Source: Planctomycetota bacterium
Lineage (GTDB): Bacteria; Planctomycetota; UBA8108; SXIK01
Direction of reading: 5' to 3'
Assembly: GCA_965223845.1 (NCBI GenBank)
Contig: CBDCXR010000004.1
Span: forward strand, 6,720,001-6,784,000
DNA length: 64,000 nucleotides
The translations under genes and the position numbers were made by a program. Below, piece after piece: positions 1 to 55,197 of the stretch (positions are counted from its first letter, which is position 1; each line of letters begins with the position of its first letter). The notes beneath the pieces are model-generated. The model was not told the DNA's origin and made no database searches. It worked only from the letters and a program-made list of their open reading frames with translations.

Positions 1-134
1 GACGTGATCGGACGGTCGCGCTCAGGGAGGTCGCCGAGAAGCCGGTAGAGCTCTATGCGCCGCGCGTCCACCGATACCGCGTCGTGTTCGGGGGGCCTCG
101 GCGCGTTGGGTTTTGCGTCGTCGTTTCCGTTCAC
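1..134 (-). CDS. N-terminal fragment of a probable alpha/beta hydrolase (dienelactone hydrolase / YtaP-like), continues beyond window start
   Basis: Read manually from GTG at 134: MNGNDDAKPNAPRPPEHDAVSVDARRIELYRLLGDLPERDRPIT. The 'RRxELYxLLGDLPxRxRPI' segment resembles the N-terminus of YtaP-like hydrolases as I recall it. Confidence 0.5.
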   Translation of the reverse strand, partial: MNGNDDAKPNAPRPPEHDAVSVDARRIELYRLLGDLPERDRPIT

Positions 135-240
135 TGCGCCTCCGACGGTGAGCGAGCCGAGTAGGGCGAGAGTTTCGCGTCGAGTGAGCGAAGGCATTCC
201 GGATCTCCTTGCGTAGCGGCGAGAAGAACGAACCGTGGTC

Positions 241-1560
241 TCACCGGCCGGCTGAACGAGCTTCGACGCCGGTACGCCTCTCTTTTCGTTCGTCCGCGCG
301 CGGCGCCGCTTCCGGTGCCCGGGCGTTCGTTGCCGAGCTCCACCGGCCGATCGATGAACTAGGAACGAACGAACCGGCTTGGGCGCGCGCTGTCGTCGCG
401 GCGAATTCTTCGTAGCGATGCCGCTCGGGTGGCCGAAGCCGGGCCCGCTCAAACCGGCGCGAGTAGTTTTCCGCGAAGGAATACTCGAGCTCTGCATTCG
501 TCGGAGGGCGAGTATCGAACACGCGCTTCCACACATCCGGAGGTTCCATGCACAAGTAGACGACCGGGCCGCGGTCGCCTGCGGTGCCGACCTTCGCGCG
601 AATCGCGGCGGCGACGTGCCGGTACATCTCGATCCGCGTCGGTCGGAGATAGTGGAGCTTTCCGTCGGCGGCGGGAACGAGCTCGCCGGTGCGGAGATCG
701 GAGCGGGGAAAGCGCTCGGCCATCGTGTGCTTCATTTCGGGCGGGAAGCGAAGCGAGCCGAGGCTGATCCACGCGATGCGGTTGAGCGAGACCGCACCGA
801 AGATCGCGTCAATGAGCTCCGAGTAGCCGCTACGCCACTCGCGGTAGCGAACCATCGGATCGAGATGGAACCCGACCGGATACCCGTGCTCCGCGACCCG
901 GCTTGCGGCGCGGAGACGCGCGGAGAGACTCGCCGTCTTCAACTCGTCGCGCTCGACCACCGCGACCGGATTCACCGACCAGGAAACGACGGTGCGCTCA
1001 CCAGCATCGAGCTCGAGGAGGCGGTCGATGTTATCCGTCTTCGTCTTCAGCTCGAGCACGGCGTTCGGGAGCTCCCGGAAGAAGGGCACCATGTGCGTGG
1101 TCGACTCGGTGAGCGGATCGAGGAGGAGGCTGTCGGAAAGCTCGCCCGTCCCGATGCGAAAGAGCCGCTCGGGAGCTTCGCTCGTCCGCGCGTGGATCTC
1201 GTCCGCGAGAGCATCGATGTTGCCGAACACCGTGATGTGGGGACTCGTCATGTAGAACTGGAGAATGCAGTACGTGCACTCCATCGAGCAGTTGTTCGCC
1301 TCGGCGACCGTGTGGAGATTGCAGCACGCGTAGTTCGTCTTCCAGCCCTGGCAGAGCTTCACGCTGCGTCCGAGGAATCGGCGGACGAGGAGGAGGCGCT
1401 TTCCCGCGGTGAGGCTCAGGTGGCGAGTGCCGTCCGCGAGTTCCCGCGTCGGCTCGAACGTGACCTCGATCGAGCCTGAGTTGCGAAGGATCGCGCGGCT
1501 GATCGGCGAGTCGGCGACCTCGGGGTCGATCACGATGCGGGCGAAGGTGGGGGCGATCAT
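241..1560 (-). CDS. spore photoproduct lyase-like radical SAM protein
   Basis: CxxxCxxC motif (NCSMECTYC), plus RIGTGELSDSL, ELKTKT, VSWSVNP and GFHLDP segments typical of the SPL family. Confidence 0.85.
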   Translation of the reverse strand: MIAPTFARIVIDPEVADSPISRAILRNSGSIEVTFEPTRELADGTRHLSLTAGKRLLLVRRFLGRSVKLCQGWKTNYACCNLHTVAEANNCSMECTYCILQFYMTSPHITVFGNIDALADEIHARTSEAPERLFRIGTGELSDSLLLDPLTESTTHMVPFFRELPNAVLELKTKTDNIDRLLELDAGERTVVSWSVNPVAVVERDELKTASLSARLRAASRVAEHGYPVGFHLDPMVRYREWRSGYSELIDAIFGAVSLNRIAWISLGSLRFPPEMKHTMAERFPRSDLRTGELVPAADGKLHYLRPTRIEMYRHVAAAIRAKVGTAGDRGPVVYLCMEPPDVWKRVFDTRPPTNAELEYSFAENYSRRFERARLRPPERHRYEEFAATTARAQAGSFVPSSSIGRWSSATNARAPEAAPRADERKERRTGVEARSAGR

Positions 1561-1689
1561 AGAGAGGCGAGTCTACCGGATGCCCGACGGCGCTGGGCAG
1601 GTCGATCCGCTGGAGGAAGGCAGATGTTTCCGCCGGGAGACGAGCCGAAGGCGAGCCCGGCGGGGCGAACCTTCGCGACGCCCCGGGGG

Positions 1690-1735
1690 AAAAAACTAGG
1701 CTCAGAGCGAGCGCAACGCGCCGGTTCTGAGCCTA
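1690..1735 (-). terminator. intrinsic terminator
   Basis: 10-bp stem TAGGCTCAGA (1697-1706) / TCTGAGCCTA (1726-1735), followed on the minus strand by GTTTTTT. Confidence 0.75.
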
Positions 1736-2589
1736 ACGATCCGGTTTCCGCTCTCCACTCTCCTCAAAGGACGTTCCGCAGCGTCGCTTCTCTCAGAGAG
1801 TTGCGATCGAACTCTCCGCGCTGAAAGCGACTTTGGCGGGCGAACGCTTCGTCGAGTCCAGGGCTCGACTCAGTCCACCCGGTGTCGTCCACCCGGTCTC
1901 GCCTCGACGAACGTCGCGGCCAGACGATTCGACTCCTCTCCTTGTCTGTTCGAGTTCGTCAGCTCAGGTCCGCGCTCGCGACTGAAGCGCGTTCGTCTGG
2001 GTCCATGCCGGCGATCTGAGCGCGGCGCGTTCGGGCTCACCTCCGAGTTCGTCAACCGGAAGACAGACTCGGATCGTCGATCGCTGGCTTTACGTGCGCA
2101 CCCCATTGCTGTCTGAACTCGACCCCGATGTTCTCAGTATTCCGCTCGCGGCCTTGGCGACGACGGGTGTTCACCCGCTTGTGTTCGCGCGCCGCTCAAA
2201 CGACTCGCGTTCGATGCGGATCGCATTCGACGCACGCCGTCACACGGACGGATACGCCGGGAACCAACCGTCCGGCAGGGGCGTGAAGGCTTGCGCGCGG
2301 AGGCCAAGCCTTCACGCCTGCCGCCACCACCACGTACGAAGAGCTTCGGGATCGATGATCGGATTTAGTCGCCGTCCTCGCGCGGCAATTCGTTTCCGCC
2401 CGGGCGCATACACGCGCGCCGATTCGCCGGTGGCGTTCGTCGCGAACTTCTACGCGCAGTACCGAGAGAAGTGAGAAACGAACTGAGGTCCCGCTCCACC
2501 ACGGGCATGAGAGTTCGGTGAAGGGACCCTGCTGAGCGAGGAATAGCTGTCGAAAGCCAGCGCTGTCAGCGAACAGCGCACGAACGACG
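1690..2589 (-). ncRNA. candidate large structured non-coding RNA (~900 nt)
   Basis: Lies between a sigma70-like promoter (2596-2625) and a terminator (1690-1735). Contains at least 8 hairpins and no convincing ORF. Confidence 0.45.
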
Positions 2590-2595
2590 GGCGGA

Positions 2596-2625
2596 TTTAT
2601 ACTCGACCGGTGATGTCGACGTCAA
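2596..2625 (-). promoter_or_regulatory. sigma70-type promoter
   Basis: Minus strand TTGACG-N18-TATAAA, with a T-rich tract (CTTTTCTTTT) upstream, in a GC-rich genome. Confidence 0.6.
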
Positions 2626-2713
2626 CGCGAAAAGAAAAGCTGAATCGAGCCTTTACATCGCGCGCGCGTTCTGGTTTTGCGCGGGGTCTGCAGAGCTCCG
2701 TCGATCGCGCGAC

Positions 2714-3739
2714 TCACTGTTCGCTACTCCAATTGCAGAGGCGTGCGCGGAGCTCGTCGAGCGATACGTGATGCGTGCCGATGTTGCTCACGGCAATCGC
2801 CGCGCTTTCGCTTGCTACGCGCGCGATGGTGTGAAGGCTCCAGCCCGCGGCGTTTCCGAGCGCGGCGACGGAGCTCACTGCATCGCCCGCGCCCGTCACG
2901 TCGCTCACGCTAGTCGCAGCGGATGGGATGTTCGACACGTCGCCGTCGCGACTGAAGATCGCCATCCCTTCTGCACCGAGAGTGAGAAGCACCTGCGCGT
3001 GACCGCCACGCTGTTTGAGCTCGCGCCCGAGGCGTTCGGTGTCGTCGAGGTCGCCACCCACGGCGCCGTGCGCTTCGCGGTCGTTCGGGATCACGAGGTC
3101 GAAGGATCGAAAGAGCGCGACGCGTTCGCGCGAGCTGCCGTGAAGGAGCGCGCCTGAGGACTGCGCTATGCTCGGCAGCTCGGCGAGGAGTCGACGAGTC
3201 ACGAGGTGATCGATCTGGTCGAGAACGACGACGACATCCTTTCCGTTCGACTCGCGGCGAACGGCGTCGATCACGCGGTCCTCGAGGGTCGCGTCGAGCG
3301 GCGCGTCGGGAAGGACGTCCATCCTCAGGATCTCTTGCGACGGCGAGTTGTCGACGCGTGACCGGAGCTTCGTGTAGGTGAACGTGCGCTGAGCAGAGTT
3401 CGTGAGCACGCCGCTCGTCCCGATGCCTTTCGCTTCGAGTTGGGCGCGCAGAACGCGGGCCGCGTCGTCGTCACCGGTGATCGCGACGAGCGATACCTCC
3501 GCGCCGAGATTTCGAATCGAACTCGCGAGATTACCCGACGCCCCCGCCCACTGTTTCTTCTCGCCGAGGCGCACGACGGGAATCGGCCCTTCCTTCGACA
3601 CCTCGTACATCTCGCTCTCTTGGTACTCGTCTAGGAAGAGATCTCCGACGACGAGGATCTTCAGTCCCTTGAACTCGTCGAGCGAGGCGAGGACGTCAGC
3701 CGGCACGGACGGGGATGGCGTGTCAGATGGGGTCGGCAT
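2714..3739 (-). CDS. PfkB-family kinase, RfaE/HldE kinase-domain-like (heptose-7-phosphate kinase-like)
   Basis: ILVVGDLFLDEY, PIPVV, GASGNLA, PNDREA, TLGAEGM and DVTGAGD PfkB signatures; ATG at 3739 preferred as start. Confidence 0.85.
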   Translation of the reverse strand: MPTPSDTPSPSVPADVLASLDEFKGLKILVVGDLFLDEYQESEMYEVSKEGPIPVVRLGEKKQWAGASGNLASSIRNLGAEVSLVAITGDDDAARVLRAQLEAKGIGTSGVLTNSAQRTFTYTKLRSRVDNSPSQEILRMDVLPDAPLDATLEDRVIDAVRRESNGKDVVVVLDQIDHLVTRRLLAELPSIAQSSGALLHGSSRERVALFRSFDLVIPNDREAHGAVGGDLDDTERLGRELKQRGGHAQVLLTLGAEGMAIFSRDGDVSNIPSAATSVSDVTGAGDAVSSVAALGNAAGWSLHTIARVASESAAIAVSNIGTHHVSLDELRARLCNWSSEQ

Positions 3740-4652
3740 CTTGGTAGTCGCGCGGAGAAACTCCACGCTCGCTTTTCTGCTTGAGCGCGAGAAGAACGGA
3801 GGCCCAGTACACGGCGCGGGGAGCGCGCCGAGCGTCGGGTGACCAGGGGCCGTGGTCGGTGAGCTCGACTCGCGTTGCGAGCTCCGTTTCAGCGATGCGC
3901 CATGAAATCTCCGCTCGCTCCTCCGGCGACCAGTACCAGTCGTGCGAGAGCTCTCCGCCTTCGCCGATCTCGATCCACGCGCGCGGACCGGGTGCGATGC
4001 CGAGTGAAAACTCGCCCCCGGTCTCGAGGTTCACCGCGACGTCGCGGCCCCACCAACTCGCGAGCTCCTGCGGGTCGGTGAGCTTCGACCAGATCACCCA
4101 CGGAAACGTCGTGACGTCGACGGCGAGCGAGAGCGGCGGTGCTCCTCGATCGATCGCACCGTAGTCGAGCCGCAGCGACGCCGAACCCGTTTCGACGTAC
4201 CCGCGGAGCGAAGGGAGGCCGACCGACCACCAATCCGGCGCGCCCGCCGGCCACTCCGCCGGTGCCCGATCTGCCGTTTGGACGACCGTCAGCTCGGTCT
4301 CCTCGAGGAAGTTCGCGAGCTCGTAGAGAACGATCGTCTCCACTCCGCCCACCGCCCAGCGATACCGGAGACGAGATCCGGGAGTGAGCTCGACGATTTC
4401 GCCGCGGGAACTCGCGGCCGCATCCGCGGCGGCTGAGGAAGCGCGGTCGATCGGTGTCGCCCCTTCGCAGTGGTAGGCGCCGCCGGGTTCGAGGTTTACG
4501 TCCGCCGAGTCACACCACCACTCGGTCAGCTCGTGCGCGTTCGTCAGCGCCCGCCAAACTCGCTCGGGCGGCGCGGCGATGCGCTCTCGGCGACGTACGG
4601 ACCACGGCGCACGCGGAGGACGAAAATCACTGAGGGGAACGAATCGAGTCAC
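3723..4652 (-). CDS. tandem SRPBCC (Aha1/AHSA1-like) domain protein
   Basis: Two repeats: 'IAAPPERVWRALTNAHELTEWW...PGG' and 'PWVIWSKLTDPQELASWW...TGG'; start uncertain (GTG 4652 chosen). Confidence 0.8.
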   Translation of the reverse strand: MTRFVPLSDFRPPRAPWSVRRRERIAAPPERVWRALTNAHELTEWWCDSADVNLEPGGAYHCEGATPIDRASSAAADAAASSRGEIVELTPGSRLRYRWAVGGVETIVLYELANFLEETELTVVQTADRAPAEWPAGAPDWWSVGLPSLRGYVETGSASLRLDYGAIDRGAPPLSLAVDVTTFPWVIWSKLTDPQELASWWGRDVAVNLETGGEFSLGIAPGPRAWIEIGEGGELSHDWYWSPEERAEISWRIAETELATRVELTDHGPWSPDARRAPRAVYWASVLLALKQKSERGVSPRDYQDADPI

Positions 4653-5143
4653 GGCATGAAGTCGGCGAGAGGAGCGGGGCGGGGCGAGACTGGGCCGCGC
4701 TGCACCCACTATAGCGCGCGCGGCGCCGTCGATACGACTCTCCGAAGCCGCTGGATGCTGCGGGAAGATCGTGGTAGTCGTGGAGTCGACTCCCGGTGGA
4801 AACGGTGGTTCCCGCTCCCGCGTGCGCGTCGCCTCCAAGGCCGCCGCGATCGCCGATCCGAATCTGAACCGGCTCGGCGATTCGCGCTTGCCTCGGGTCG
4901 GGCGCGCAAAGCGGAAGGATTCGACTTGCGGCGCCGCCGAAGACCGCCGACAACGAGAGTCGAGGCAGTGAGTGGAAAGGTCTCAAGCGGAAGGGTACGG
5001 GGGAGTGTGGGGCGTAACTCTCGGCGCGTGCCGTGAGTCGCGCCGCCGACAGGGTGGACGAGCCGAGGAGAGCGGCAGCGAGCGTGCGAGCGCTGCATCC
5101 TCTCGCGTGCTCAGTTTGATCCGGTGACGATGGGAGGAGAGTC

Positions 5144-6118
5144 ATGGGTCCATCCACTGCACGCGTCGAGTGTCGCGAGGCGACCGGATTTCGGGAAGTG
5201 ACTCTGCGCAATCGTCACTTCCAGCTGACCGTGCTCCCCGAGGTCGGGTGTCACTGGTGGCAGCTCTCGCTCTCCGCGGCGGGTGAGTGGCACGAGCTTC
5301 TTCTGCCGACGCCCGTGCAGGCGCTGACGACGGGACGCGGTCTCCGGGGTTCGTACGTTCTCGCGCCGTGGTCGAATCGCGTCGTCGACGGGCGGTTCGA
5401 GTACGCCGGCGAGACGTACACGCTCCGTCCGAACTACCCCGATGGCACGAGCATCCACGGCGACGTTCGTCTCCGTCCCTGGCAAGTCGAGGTCGAGGAC
5501 GACCAACTCTTCGAAGCCACGCTCGCGACGGCGGAAGCAGAAGAGTTCAACTTCCCCTTCGCGCTCGGGTTTCGCCAACGCTTTCGCCTCGCGGGAGAGC
5601 GTCTATCGGTCGAGTTCGAGATCGAGAATCGGGATCGCCGACGCGCGCCGGTGGGAGTGGGATACCACCCGTACTTCCGGCGGCGACTGACGAGTCGCGA
5701 TCGCGACCTCTACGTGCGCGTTCCCGCCGGAGCGATGTATCCACTCGAAGACTGCGTTCCGACCGGGCCCGCGGTCCGGGTCGACGCCGCGCGCGATCTG
5801 CAGGTCCTCGGTCCGCTCGGCGATCGAGAGCTGAACGATTGCTTGACCGAGCTCTCCGAGCGGGAGTTTCGCTTGATCTATCCTGGGACCGGGGTGGAAG
5901 TGCGGCTCACCGCGAGCGAGGAATTCGGTCACGTCGTCGTGTACTCACCGCGCGGGGACAAGGGCGAGCCGAGCGAGTTTCTCGCCGTGGAGCCGGTGAG
6001 TCACGTGACCGATGGCTTCAACCGACTCGCGCGCGGCGACGAGATGACGGGCGTGCAAGAGCTCGATCCGGGTGAGGTGTGGCGCACCGAGTGGAGTCTC
6101 ACGGTCGGCGATATCTGA
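5144..6118 (+). CDS. aldose 1-epimerase family protein
   Basis: LAPWSNRV, IHGDV, GYHPYF and FLAVEPVS motifs; GGAGGAG RBS upstream. Confidence 0.9.
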   Translation: MGPSTARVECREATGFREVTLRNRHFQLTVLPEVGCHWWQLSLSAAGEWHELLLPTPVQALTTGRGLRGSYVLAPWSNRVVDGRFEYAGETYTLRPNYPDGTSIHGDVRLRPWQVEVEDDQLFEATLATAEAEEFNFPFALGFRQRFRLAGERLSVEFEIENRDRRRAPVGVGYHPYFRRRLTSRDRDLYVRVPAGAMYPLEDCVPTGPAVRVDAARDLQVLGPLGDRELNDCLTELSEREFRLIYPGTGVEVRLTASEEFGHVVVYSPRGDKGEPSEFLAVEPVSHVTDGFNRLARGDEMTGVQELDPGEVWRTEWSLTVGDI

Positions 6119-13481: not shown

Positions 13482-13550
13482 AAAAAAAACAGAAGAAGCA
13501 CTAATCAACGATCGAGCGCGTTGCGCTCGATCGTTGATTAGTGCTTCTTC
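13482..13550 (-). terminator. terminator with a perfect 28-bp stem overlapping the end of the bL37-like gene
   Basis: GAAGAAGCACTAATCAACGATCGAGCGC (13492-13519), GTT loop, exact reverse complement (13523-13550); T8 tract follows on the minus strand. Confidence 0.8.
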
Positions 13551-54282: not shown

Positions 54283-55197
54283 TCAGAGAACGTCGAAGAA
54301 TCGACGAAGGAGCTCGCCGTTTCGAGCGAGCTCGTCCGGGAGGCGACGGAGCGCGTCTTCGTCCTCGAGGTCCGCGATGAGTCGAACTCCGGGTCGATCG
54401 AGATCCGCGTCCCATTCGATGCGAATCGGGAGAGCGAAGTCGAGCTCGCGATCGAGCCGACGGAGGGACTCTCGGTAGCGATCGAGCTCGGGAAAGCGAC
54501 GAGCGCGCAGTGCGGCGATGAGCTGGGACTTGTCTCGGGCTGACGCGCGCGCGGCGGAGAAGATGTCGTGCGGCGGTTTCGTCTCGCGCTGGGCGATTTC
54601 TTCGGTGAGCTCGAGCGCCTCGTTGAGCTCCGAGAAGGTGAGCGCGAGCTCTCGCGCGGCTTTCATGAGCCCGCCGAGCGTCGCCGAGGAAAATCGGAGC
54701 AGCGCACGCGCGCGACGGAGCGGCAGGTTCTTCTCTTCGACGAAGTCTTGCGCGGAACGAGGGAGGTCGAGAAGCCGGAGGTGCGACTGATAGAGCTCGT
54801 TCGAGGGGCGAAGTCCGAGCCGAGGGAGCTTGTCTCGCACGATCCGCTCGGCATCGATCGAAGCGGTCGCGGCGAGGGCGGCGAGCACGCGAGCGATCTC
54901 GACCACGTTCCAGTCTTCGTTGTCTTCGAGAGTGAGGTCCCACAGGGCCTCGAGCGAGGTTTCGGCGTCGACGGTGAAACAAGGCAGTCGAGCGTCTCTC
55001 GGGGCGGAGAGCGCGCGGCTCCAGCCCGAGACGATCCGCCAACCGGTCGCGCGCGGCTGGACGAGGAGCGGAGTCGTCACGCCCCGGCGGAGGATGGACT
55101 CGCGCAGTCCGGATCGGGGAGCGCGGCGGAAGCGAAAAGTCTCGTCGGTTTGGTCGAGGTCGGCGGGGGGGAGCCAACGAAAGTCGCGGGTCGTCAA
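54283..55197 (-). CDS. ParB/Srx N-terminal domain protein (orphan)
   Basis: LRESILRRGVTTPLLV...IVSGWSR...EDN; helical C-terminus; no adjacent parA. Confidence 0.7.
   Translation of the reverse strand: MTTRDFRWLPPADLDQTDETFRFRRAPRSGLRESILRRGVTTPLLVQPRATGWRIVSGWSRALSAPRDARLPCFTVDAETSLEALWDLTLEDNEDWNVVEIARVLAALAATASIDAERIVRDKLPRLGLRPSNELYQSHLRLLDLPRSAQDFVEEKNLPLRRARALLRFSSATLGGLMKAARELALTFSELNEALELTEEIAQRETKPPHDIFSAARASARDKSQLIAALRARRFPELDRYRESLRRLDRELDFALPIRIEWDADLDRPGVRLIADLEDEDALRRLPDELARNGELLRRFFDVL

What the first reader, a model, noticed from the sequence alone, without database searches (positions are those of the whole stretch)
1690..2625. Self-contained ~900-nt structured transcription unit with no credible ORF: candidate novel large ncRNA
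Seen: a 1.15-kb gap between two minus-strand genes contains a minus-strand promoter (TTGACG-N18-TATAAA, 2625-2596) and a minus-strand terminator (1690-1735). Hairpins lie between them at 2560-2579, 2544-2559, 2486-2530, 2274-2322 (a long stem, GGCAGGGGCGTGAAGGCTTG/CAAGCCTTCACGCCTGCC), 2245-2274, 2207-2233, 2164-2177, 1850-1869 and about 1796-1816. Short repeated motifs also occur (TGACGAACTCG twice; ACCGGGTGGAC twice). I found no hallmark of tmRNA, RNase P RNA, SRP RNA or group II intron domain V. Inference: a large ornate ncRNA in the size class of OLE/ROOL/GOLLD, or a very long regulatory leader for the downstream SPL-like gene.
Basis: partly seen in the sequence, partly recalled or inferred. 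Interest (0 to 1): 0.8.

Follow-up and report, generated by a model that had tools for sequence, protein, structure and literature searches.

The report
Unconserved non-coding gap before SPL gene
A 1.15-kb gene-free stretch in a Planctomycetota genome carries a plausible promoter and a real terminator, but no other genome searched has it and it is not unusually folded, so it reads better as young spacer or leader DNA at a broken gene pair than as a new large RNA.

Summary
The gap (window 1561-2713) is real and non-coding. All six frames have negative codon scores and flat codon-position GC. No ORF or read-through frame matches Pfam, 5.8 bn proteins or 30 relatives. The minus-strand terminator (1690-1735) and the long hairpin (2274-2322) are far beyond chance. 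The promoter-like site (2625-2596) is statistically rare but lacks the final T of the -10 box. The other eight hairpins and the two short repeats are at or near chance. In 200-nt windows the gap folds no better than the rest of the window (p=0.14), and the opposite strand scores better over the full length.

Nothing matches in Rfam (E<=1). No DNA homologue was found in the own genome, 40 relatives, 400 phylum genomes, 13 SPL-linked loci, plasmids or phages.

In 8 relatives' loci examined, SPL follows another gene with no comparable gap (about 260 nt or less). In 5 of these that gene is a ParB-HTH-like partner. Here the intact partner lies 52.7 kb upstream, so the gap sits at a synteny break.

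Best reading: young, lineage-specific junction DNA, probably transcribed and ended at the terminator, acting in cis on SPL. An OLE/ROOL/GOLLD-class RNA is not supported. No expression data exist. Interest is low.

The parts
241..1560 (-). SPL-like radical-SAM gene (439 aa), the gene downstream of the gap
   Evidence: Pfam PF20903, E 9.2e-29. Orthologues are 60-71% identical in the family and in metagenomes. Codon score is +0.33 and GC3 is 0.82.
1561..1689 (-). 129 nt between the terminator and the SPL start codon. No sigma-70-like promoter is recognisable. Positions 1641-1677 resemble part of a 136-nt tandem repeat elsewhere in the genome.
   Evidence: The promoter scan found nothing on either strand. 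By eye the only -10-like hexamer is TAGACT, and it has no TTG-type -35. Folding gives z -0.98. The repeat likeness is 87% over 38 nt, E 6.4e-4.
1690..1735 (-). Intrinsic (Rho-independent) terminator: a 10-bp outer stem with an inner 5-bp stem, followed by a T6 tail. It works on the minus strand only.
   Evidence: -24.5 kcal/mol, z -4.3, 0 of 200 shuffles as good. The terminator scan hit its inner part. It belongs to the 70 of 298 non-coding T6 runs with a hairpin of -20 kcal/mol or stronger, against 18 of 600 controls. It lies 1022 nt from the upstream coding region, the fourth longest of 70 (median 87.5 nt).
1870..2106 (-). It is not a gene.
   Evidence: No Pfam family. No homologue among proteins of 42-137 aa in 5.8 bn sequences. 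Codon scores are negative in all three minus frames. No Shine-Dalgarno-like motif upstream.
2274..2322 (.). Long hairpin or palindrome: a 14-bp perfect stem (2280-2293 with 2305-2318) extended to 18 pairs, with an 11-nt loop and no T tail on either strand.
   Evidence: z -4.9, 0 of 200 shuffles as good. Repeat I2 is 100% complementary. Of 102 such hairpins on C4, 81 lie in non-coding DNA at a median of 21 nt from a gene. This one is 399 nt away, one of only two that are 350 nt or more from a gene.
2596..2625 (-). Sigma-70-like promoter candidate TTGACG-N18-TATAAA, preceded by a T-rich tract.
   Evidence: It is the only match of TTGAC-N17-20-TATAA in the window, with 0 of 100 shuffles matching, and one of 6 on C4. 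It lacks the final T of the -10 box, so the consensus scan did not call it. That class of site is less enriched in non-coding DNA.
2635..2654 (-). Weak A/U-rich hairpin followed by CUUUU, just after the pfkB stop codon. At best it is a weak terminator, so pfkB transcripts may read into the gap.
   Evidence: The 2626-2716 minus strand folds with z +0.99. The 7-pair stem is AAAGGCU with AGCUUUU.
2714..3766 (-). pfkB-family sugar kinase gene upstream of the gap. It has no close orthologue in the three family genomes (best 32-33% identity, located elsewhere).
   Evidence: Pfam PF00294, E 8.2e-27. Family search.
54286..55194 (-). Intact ParB-HTH-like gene. Its orthologues in relatives lie directly upstream of SPL. 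Here it is 52.7 kb upstream, on the same strand and in the same order.
   Evidence: A profile of 5 relatives' proteins (A1) hits here with E 2.7e-109 over positions 5-308 of 308, with no internal stops. Pfam PF17762. The genes in between are ordinary chromosomal ones: gltB/gltD-like, sulfite reductase, MoaA, a sigma-54 activator, a sulfatase and others. No integrase or transposase family appeared among the 30 ORFs scanned.

Best explanation
The 1.15-kb gap is young, lineage-specific, non-coding junction DNA at a break in gene order. It is not a member of a conserved class of large structured RNAs.

In relatives the SPL-like gene is the distal gene of a tight operon, most often behind a ParB-HTH-like partner. 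In this genome the partner has been moved 52.7 kb away, and SPL now sits behind 1.15 kb of unique sequence.

The minus strand of the gap is probably transcribed, either from the sigma-70-like site at 2625-2596 or by read-through from pfkB, which has no strong terminator of its own. That untranslated RNA of about 0.9-1.0 kb ends at the strong intrinsic terminator at 1690-1735.

Its effect is most likely in cis. The terminator insulates or attenuates SPL, which has no recognisable sigma-70 promoter of its own in the remaining 129 nt. SPL expression would then depend on read-through or on an unrecognised promoter.

What is shown: the gap is non-coding, the terminator and the long hairpin are non-random, the sequence has no homologue in any genome searched, and the gene order is broken here. 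What is inferred: transcription, promoter activity, and the cis effect on SPL.
For: **Non-coding**
- Codon-position GC is flat.
- A codon-usage mask leaves 1573-2716 uncovered.
- All six frames score -0.12 to -0.36 per codon, against +0.33 and +0.35 for the flanking genes.
- No Pfam family in six read-through frames; best E 0.86.
- No homologue for the 78-aa or 126-aa ORF.

**Found in no other genome searched**
- Own genome.
- 40 relatives: only 3 matches of 31-43 nt, E 0.0025-0.008.
- 400 phylum genomes: 12 had matches of 23-50 nt, scattered along the query.
- 13 SPL-linked loci by blastn, nhmmer and tblastx: best blastn E 0.1, nhmmer found nothing.
- Plasmids and phages. Rfam: 0 matches at E<=1.

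**Synteny break**
- In the 8 loci where the upstream gene was examined, SPL follows a co-directional gene with no comparable gap: 0-50 nt in seven, and at most about 260 nt in G003.
- In 5 of the 8 that gene is the ParB-HTH-like gene.
- Its intact orthologue is at window 54286-55194.

**Transcription signals**
- Terminator statistics.
- Promoter-like site.
- Only a weak hairpin follows pfkB.
- No promoter was called in 1400-2900.

**Not globally structured**
-.
Against: - The promoter-like site is rare. By my own rough estimate, about 0.07 chance co-occurrences of TTGAC with the 36 TATAAA hexamers on C4 would be expected (counts). Together with the terminator it would fit a deliberate, self-contained unit.
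- Perfect hairpins are somewhat enriched: 8 against 3.35 in random genome segments, which puts the gap in the top 5%.
- The long hairpin is one of only two of its class that lie far from any gene end, which neutral junk does not predict.
- The genome has only 38 gaps of 1 kb or more on C4, so 1.15 kb of function-less DNA is uncommon.
- The closest genomes available are only family-level relatives (SPL 60-71% identical), so conservation within the genus is untested.
- There are no expression data at all.
- I looked for an alternative (antiterminator) pairing only by eye and found none, so the attenuation idea is unproven.
Confidence: 0.45

Rival explanations
1. Stand-alone large non-coding RNA. 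A species- or genus-specific RNA of about 0.9 kb is made from its own promoter, ends at its own terminator, and works in trans or as a structured ribonucleoprotein.
For: A promoter-like site and a strong terminator lie on the same strand, 860-900 nt apart, with no coding potential between them. The hairpin count is in the top 5% of genome segments. There is an exceptional 14-bp perfect hairpin far from any gene end. The full-length fold scores z -2.18.
Against: No homologue was found anywhere. No Rfam match. In 200-nt windows the structure is not different from background (p 0.14), and 8 of 10 windows score z between -1.8 and +0.95 on the minus strand. The opposite strand folds better relative to shuffles. 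The -10 box lacks its final T. Known large ornate RNAs are defined by wide conservation and covariation, and neither exists here.
Confidence: 0.15
2. Relic of one or two decayed genes. The promoter, the mid-gap hairpin and the terminator are the surviving signals of genes whose reading frames have been erased.
For: Both the long hairpins and the T-tailed hairpins of this genome normally sit within tens of nt of a gene end: medians of 21 and 87.5 nt. Here two such structures stand without a gene. The gap has the length of one average gene. Its GC content (0.634) is like that of coding DNA, though so is non-coding DNA in this genome (0.643).
Against: No residual codon-position signal in any frame. 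No Pfam family in the read-through frames. No match of the three minus frames in 30 relatives. tblastx gave nothing consistent. The profile of the ParB-like partner finds nothing here; best E 0.76. Neutral decay thorough enough to erase a reading frame should also have eroded a perfect 14-bp stem and a 10-bp stem with a T6 tail.
Confidence: 0.13
3. One or more hidden small proteins are encoded in the gap.
For: Three ORFs of 39-66 aa have a Shine-Dalgarno-like motif upstream. The best-looking start is 1624-1824 (+), with GGAGG 7 nt before the ATG. A similar-sized gap elsewhere in this genome (L066) did hide a small ORF with a Shine-Dalgarno motif that my codon mask missed.
Against: Codon scores of the three ORFs are -0.29, -0.29 and +0.14, against +0.34 and +0.35 for the flanking genes in the same call. 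The products are Arg/Ser/Pro-rich and of low complexity. There is no Pfam family and no homologue for the two longest ORFs.
Confidence: 0.04

Closest known systems
Long 5' leaders that carry an intrinsic terminator (transcription attenuators, riboswitch or T-box type leaders)
   Same: There is a promoter-like site, then an untranslated stretch, then a strong Rho-independent terminator shortly (129 nt) before a gene that has no recognisable promoter of its own.
   Different: At about 1 kb it is several times longer than such leaders usually are (from recall). No known aptamer or leader family matches. I saw no alternative antiterminator pairing, by eye only. No relative has a leader before SPL.
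Large ornate bacterial RNAs (OLE, ROOL, GOLLD and similar Rfam families)
   Same: Size class (about 0.9 kb), absence of an ORF, several hairpins.
   Different: No match to any of the 4227 Rfam models at E<=1. That these three families are among them is from recall. No homologue in 440 other genomes and 13 loci. Folding is not above background. Those families are defined by broad conservation with covariation (from recall).
Operon-end terminator with a long 3' untranslated tail
   Same: pfkB has only a weak hairpin after its stop codon, and the next strong terminator on its strand is the one at 1690-1735.
   Different: In this genome such terminators lie a median of 87.5 nt behind the coding region. 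This one lies 1022 nt behind, the fourth longest of 70.

Membership tests
Known RNA families (Rfam 15, which by recall includes OLE, ROOL, GOLLD, tmRNA, RNase P, SRP, 6S, group II intron and riboswitches) | Match to the family's covariance model | tested here: not met
   cmscan of window 1-6000 on both strands with permissive filters gave 0 matches at E<=1.
Large ornate structured ncRNA (as a class) | Homologues in other genomes with covarying base pairs | tested here: not met
   No homologue in the own genome, 40 relatives, 400 phylum genomes, 13 SPL-linked loci, plasmids or phages. Covariation therefore cannot be computed. Genomes of the same genus were not available.
Large ornate structured ncRNA (as a class) | Folding clearly better than composition-matched and genomic background, on the transcribed strand | tested here: inconclusive
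   Full length: z -2.18 on the minus strand against -3.56 on the plus strand. In 200-nt windows: mean z -0.76 against background means of -0.15 (minus) and -0.42 (plus), p 0.14 against both strands pooled. Hairpin count is in the top 5% of genome segments.
Intrinsic (Rho-independent) terminator | G+C-rich stem-loop directly followed by a run of T on the transcribed strand | tested here: met
   A 10-bp stem with an inner stem and a T6 tail, -24.5 kcal/mol, z -4.3. The scan hit it. This class is enriched in the genome's non-coding DNA: 70 of 298 against 18 of 600.
Sigma-70-type promoter | A -35 TTGACA-like and a -10 TATAAT-like hexamer (with A at position 2 and T at position 6), 16-18 nt apart | tested here: inconclusive
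   The -35 box matches 5 of 6, the spacer is 18 nt, and the -10 box TATAAA matches 5 of 6 but lacks T at position 6. The scan did not call it. It is rare by shuffling. In this genome TAnnnT partners of TTGAC lie in non-coding DNA in 112 of 133 cases, and partners without the final T in 82 of 248.
Pseudogene or gene relic | Residual protein similarity or codon-position signal | tested here: not met
   All were negative.
Attenuator or riboswitch-type leader of SPL | Mutually exclusive terminator and antiterminator pairings, or a ligand- or protein-binding domain | not tested
   I inspected the sequence only by eye. The best upstream complement to the 5' arm of the terminator is 6 nt long. I made no formal search for alternative structures, and no Rfam aptamer matches.

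The most novel reading that the evidence does not exclude
A newly born, species-specific non-coding RNA of about 0.9 kb, made from a near-consensus promoter and ended by a strong terminator, arose on junction DNA created when a conserved ParB-like/SPL-like gene pair was pulled apart. It now has a function of its own, for example controlling SPL or acting in trans through its exceptional 18-pair hairpin.
Probability: 0.12. Interest if true: 0.5.

Novelty: already known. Interest (0 to 1): 0.22.

Why it matters
If the gap made a functional RNA, it would be a rare case of a large bacterial ncRNA born recently at a rearrangement junction, in a phylum whose RNA biology is little studied.

As the evidence stands, it is an ordinary though unusually long intergenic region with a real terminator and a plausible promoter.

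The check also gives two practical lessons:
- In DNA of 65% G+C, most hairpins and short repeats picked by eye are at chance level.
- Gene order in relatives explained the origin of the gap better than folding did. SPL normally follows another gene with almost no spacer.

Tried and rejected
**1. Pseudogene of the ParB-HTH-like partner: rejected.**
- Profile A1 with all filters off finds nothing in six frames of 1451-2800 (best E 0.76, score -2.5).
- The intact gene is at 54286-55194.

**2. Mobile element, phage or plasmid origin of the gap or of the 52.7 kb between the partners: no support.**
- The gap occurs only once in the genome.
- No phage or plasmid match.
- The 30 ORFs scanned between and around the partners are ordinary chromosomal families.
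- How the pair was separated is not resolved.

**3. Recoding: rejected.**
- One minus frame has only TGA stops (6 of 6), and one plus frame likewise (7 of 7).
- Both have negative codon scores and flat GC1-3, so TGA is simply the commonest stop triplet in this sequence.

**4. A second locus with the same architecture: not an analogue.**
- G000:C4:4882637-4883791 (L066) has a promoter-like site, a 1155-nt gap and a 16-bp hairpin far from genes.
- It has a Shine-Dalgarno-led ORF of about 70 aa and low G+C.

**5. What near-consensus promoters of this genome drive.**
- 1 of 10 such loci has a known RNA, a tRNA-Gln.
- Of 8 other long non-coding stretches that end in a terminator, only one is explained, by two tRNAs.
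- So 'promoter plus long non-coding stretch' does not by itself indicate a stable RNA here.

**6. Expression.**
- No RNA holder is listed.
- The laid runs are contigs. Only a source-like contig of X1 spans the gap, and X5 covers only 3117-3267 inside pfkB.
- This says nothing about expression or conservation.

**7. Other items.**
- Literature: two searches, of which I saw only the listings. One returned 4 papers and none concerns this. The other returned 0 papers. I read no paper and opened no supplement.
- I did not build a single-sequence covariance model, because it would mostly find any long GC-rich hairpin.
- The genome-contig scan with A1 returned only the G003 locus. It served to name the phylum, from that record's title.
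- The codon mask is my own crude device. It misses small or atypical genes, as item 4 shows, so its gap counts are approximate.
- The scans used contig C4 only (7.87 of 7.93 Mb).
Full report
**Setting**

The window is G000:C4:6720001-6784000 of a 7.9-Mb genome in 4 contigs with 65% G+C. A complete family-level relative (G003) is titled a Planctomycetota MAG.

The finding covers the gap 1561-2713 between two minus-strand genes:
- an SPL-like radical-SAM gene at 241-1560 (PF20903, E 9.2e-29)
- a pfkB-family kinase at 2714-3766 (PF00294, E 8.2e-27)

**Is the gap really non-coding? Yes.**

- The GC content of the three codon positions is flat across about 1560-2700 (spread 0.18 or less). The flanking genes show spreads of 0.3-0.5.
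- I trained a codon-usage log-odds mask on 2199 long ORFs of this genome. It marks 86% of contig C4 as coding and leaves exactly 1573-2716 (1144 nt) uncovered. That is one of 38 uncovered stretches of 1 kb or more.
- With stops ignored, all six frames score -0.12 to -0.36 per codon with GC1-3 of 0.62-0.66. SPL and pfkB score +0.33 and +0.35 with GC3 of 0.82 and 0.79.
- The 78-aa ORF (1870-2106, minus) and the 126-aa ORF (2094-2474, plus) have no Pfam family. Neither has a homologue among 5.8 bn proteins of comparable length.
- Six read-through frames give no Pfam match (best E 0.86).
- The three minus frames match nothing in 30 relatives.
- Three small ORFs have a Shine-Dalgarno-like motif, but they have non-coding codon scores and low-complexity products.

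**Which of the listed features exceed chance?**

The terminator (1690-1735, minus) does.
- It folds at -24.5 kcal/mol with z -4.3, and 0 of 200 shuffles fold as well.
- On C4, 70 of 298 T6 runs in non-coding DNA follow a hairpin of -20 kcal/mol or stronger, against 18 of 600 random non-coding controls and 16 of 418 T6 runs in coding DNA. The organism therefore uses such terminators, and this is one of them.
- It lies 1022 nt behind the nearest upstream coding region. That is the fourth longest distance of the 70; the median is 87.5 nt.

The long hairpin (2274-2322) does.
- It scores z -4.9 and has a 14-bp perfect stem.
- The genome has 103 perfect hairpins with a stem of 14 bp or more and a loop of 3-20 nt.
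- Of the 102 on C4, 81 are in non-coding DNA, at a median of 21 nt from a gene. This one is 399 nt from the nearest gene and is one of only two that are 350 nt or more away.

The promoter-like site (2625-2596) is rare but imperfect.
- TTGAC-N17-20-TATAA occurs once in the window, with 0 of 100 shuffles matching. It occurs 6 times on C4, 5 of them in non-coding DNA.
- The genome clearly uses sigma-70-type promoters: 112 of 133 TTGAC-N17-20-TAnnnT sites fall in the 13.7% of DNA that is non-coding.
- The -10 box here ends in A. The other five strict matches read TATAAT.
- TTGAC partners without the final T lie in non-coding DNA in only 82 of 248 cases. The hexamer TATAAA alone is in non-coding DNA in 19 of 36 cases, against 52 of 63 for TATAAT.
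- I rate the promoter as plausible, not shown.

The remaining features are at or near chance.
- The other eight hairpins fold as described but score only z -1.1 to -2.7 as hand-picked stretches.
- The two 11-mer repeats are at chance: 49 of 300 shuffles have as many.
- There are 8 distinct perfect hairpins with a stem of 7 bp or more. Shuffles average 2.4 (1 of 300 reach 8). Random 1153-nt segments of this genome average 3.35, and 15 of 300 reach 8. Of 142 long non-coding gaps, 9 reach the same density.

**Is it a structured RNA? Not demonstrably.**

- Over 906 nt the claimed (minus) strand scores z -2.18 and the opposite strand z -3.56, with 20 shuffles each.
- Among 200-nt windows, only the ones holding the long hairpin (2161-2360; minus-strand z -3.4) and the terminator (1561-1760; z -3.6 on the plus strand, -1.6 on the minus) stand out.
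- The mean over the gap is -0.76 on the minus strand, against background means of -0.15 (minus) and -0.42 (plus) at 40 window positions, most of them in genes; Mann-Whitney p 0.14 against both strands pooled.

**Is it known or conserved? No.**

| Search | Result |
|---|---|
| Rfam 15, window 1-6000 | 0 matches at E<=1 |
| Own genome | Gap occurs once; a 38-nt piece (1641-1677) is 87% like part of a 136-nt tandem repeat elsewhere |
| 40 relatives | 3 matches of 31-43 nt, E 0.0025-0.008 |
| 400 phylum genomes | 12 genomes with 23-50-nt matches scattered along the query, no common region |
| 11 metagenome loci plus 2 family loci that carry SPL (blastn, nhmmer, tblastx) | Nothing: best blastn E 0.1, nhmmer no hit |
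| Plasmids and phages | No match |

The nearest genomes available are only family-level relatives (SPL 60-71% identical). Conservation within the genus is therefore untested, and covariation cannot be computed.

**What gene order in relatives shows**

I identified the gene upstream of SPL in 8 loci. In all of them SPL follows a co-directional gene with no comparable gap: 0-50 nt in seven, and at most about 260 nt in G003.
- In 5 of the 8 (G003/L022, L024, L026, L027, L028) the upstream gene is a conserved protein of about 310 aa with a ParB HTH domain. These are 40-45% identical to one another (alignment A1).
- In the other three it is a TrkA-type channel gene (G001/L023), an iron alcohol dehydrogenase gene (L025), or a family-5 solute-binding protein gene (L031).

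A profile of the ParB-like protein finds an intact orthologue in this genome at window 54286-55194, on the minus strand (E 2.7e-109, no stops). It lies 52.7 kb upstream of SPL, on the same strand and in the same order.

The genes in between are ordinary chromosomal ones: glutamate synthase subunits, sulfite reductase, MoaA, a sigma-54 activator, a sulfatase and others. No integrase or transposase family appeared among the 30 ORFs scanned.

The pfkB gene next to the gap has no close orthologue in the three family genomes. The profile finds no trace of the partner gene in the gap.

The gap therefore sits where a conserved gene pair has been pulled apart, and its sequence is new relative to all relatives available.

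**Most likely working**

- pfkB has only a weak A/U-rich hairpin after its stop codon. The promoter-like site follows 70 nt later.
- The next strong stop signal on that strand is the terminator at 1690-1735.
- The 129 nt between it and the SPL start codon hold no sigma-70-like promoter (and my reading).
- I therefore infer that the minus strand of the gap is transcribed into an untranslated RNA of about 0.9-1.0 kb that ends at the terminator. The terminator would insulate or attenuate SPL, which has lost its ancestral operon context.
- I give this cis-acting junction-DNA reading 0.45.

The rivals are:
- a stand-alone species-specific ncRNA (0.15)
- a relic of one or two erased genes whose end signals survive (0.13)
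- hidden small proteins (0.04)

The rest is unassigned. No expression data could be found (see Tried and rejected).

**Comparison with known systems**

- It works most like a long leader or operon tail with an intrinsic terminator.
- It fails the tested membership criteria for any Rfam family and for the class of large ornate RNAs. There is no model match and no homologue, and the test for excess structure was inconclusive.
- It also fails the tests for a pseudogene.

**Verdict**

The sequence features are real. The terminator, one hairpin and, with a caveat, the promoter are non-random. The interpretation as a novel OLE/ROOL/GOLLD-class RNA is not supported. The alternative of a long leader remains open. 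Interest is low unless transcript mapping and same-genus genomes change the picture.

Noticed in passing
window 54286-55194 (-) and 241-1560 (-); relatives L022, L024, L026, L027, L028: A ParB-HTH-domain protein of about 310 aa lies directly upstream of the SPL-like radical-SAM gene in 5 of 8 relatives' loci examined. This looks like a conserved two-gene unit of unknown function. In this genome the two genes are 52.7 kb apart, with the same strand and order kept. A literature search for the pair found 0 papers.
   Followed up: partly
window 13492-13550: A perfect palindrome with a 28-bp stem and a 3-nt loop, the longest perfect hairpin in the genome. It lies in a stretch of low coding signal, and on the minus strand a T8 run follows 2 nt after it. 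It may be a strong terminator or a protein-binding site.
   Followed up: no
L002:1464-2035 (G000:C4, about 5033481-5034052): A tandem repeat of 136 nt, 4.2 copies, 97% matches. Part of each unit is 87% like window 1641-1677, just upstream of SPL. This may be a shared small hairpin motif or chance.
   Followed up: partly
L066 (G000:C4:4881000-4885500), gap 4882637-4883791: A second gap of about 1.15 kb, with a TTGACA-N17-TAAACT site, a 16-bp perfect hairpin far from the masked genes, and low G+C (0.59). It contains a Shine-Dalgarno-led ORF of about 70 aa that the codon mask missed, and it has no Rfam match. It is probably a small, atypical, possibly foreign gene pair.
   Followed up: partly
whole contig C4: The genome uses canonical sigma-70-type promoters. 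112 of 133 TTGAC-N17-20-TAnnnT sites and 52 of 63 TATAAT hexamers lie in the 13.7% of DNA that is non-coding. The median distance from such a site to the next coding region is 148 nt and the 75th percentile is 304 nt, which suggests long 5' untranslated regions.
   Followed up: partly
window 241-400: The SPL ORF runs about 30 codons beyond the end of its relatives' alignments (matches end at residues 404-421 of 439). The codon-position GC signal fades below about 400. The last part of the ORF may not be genuine coding sequence.
   Followed up: no
G000:C4 loci L058-L061, L063-L065: Seven other non-coding stretches of 525-1292 nt end in a strong T-tailed hairpin and have no credible Rfam match. 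They could be long 3' tails, missed genes or unknown RNAs.
   Followed up: partly
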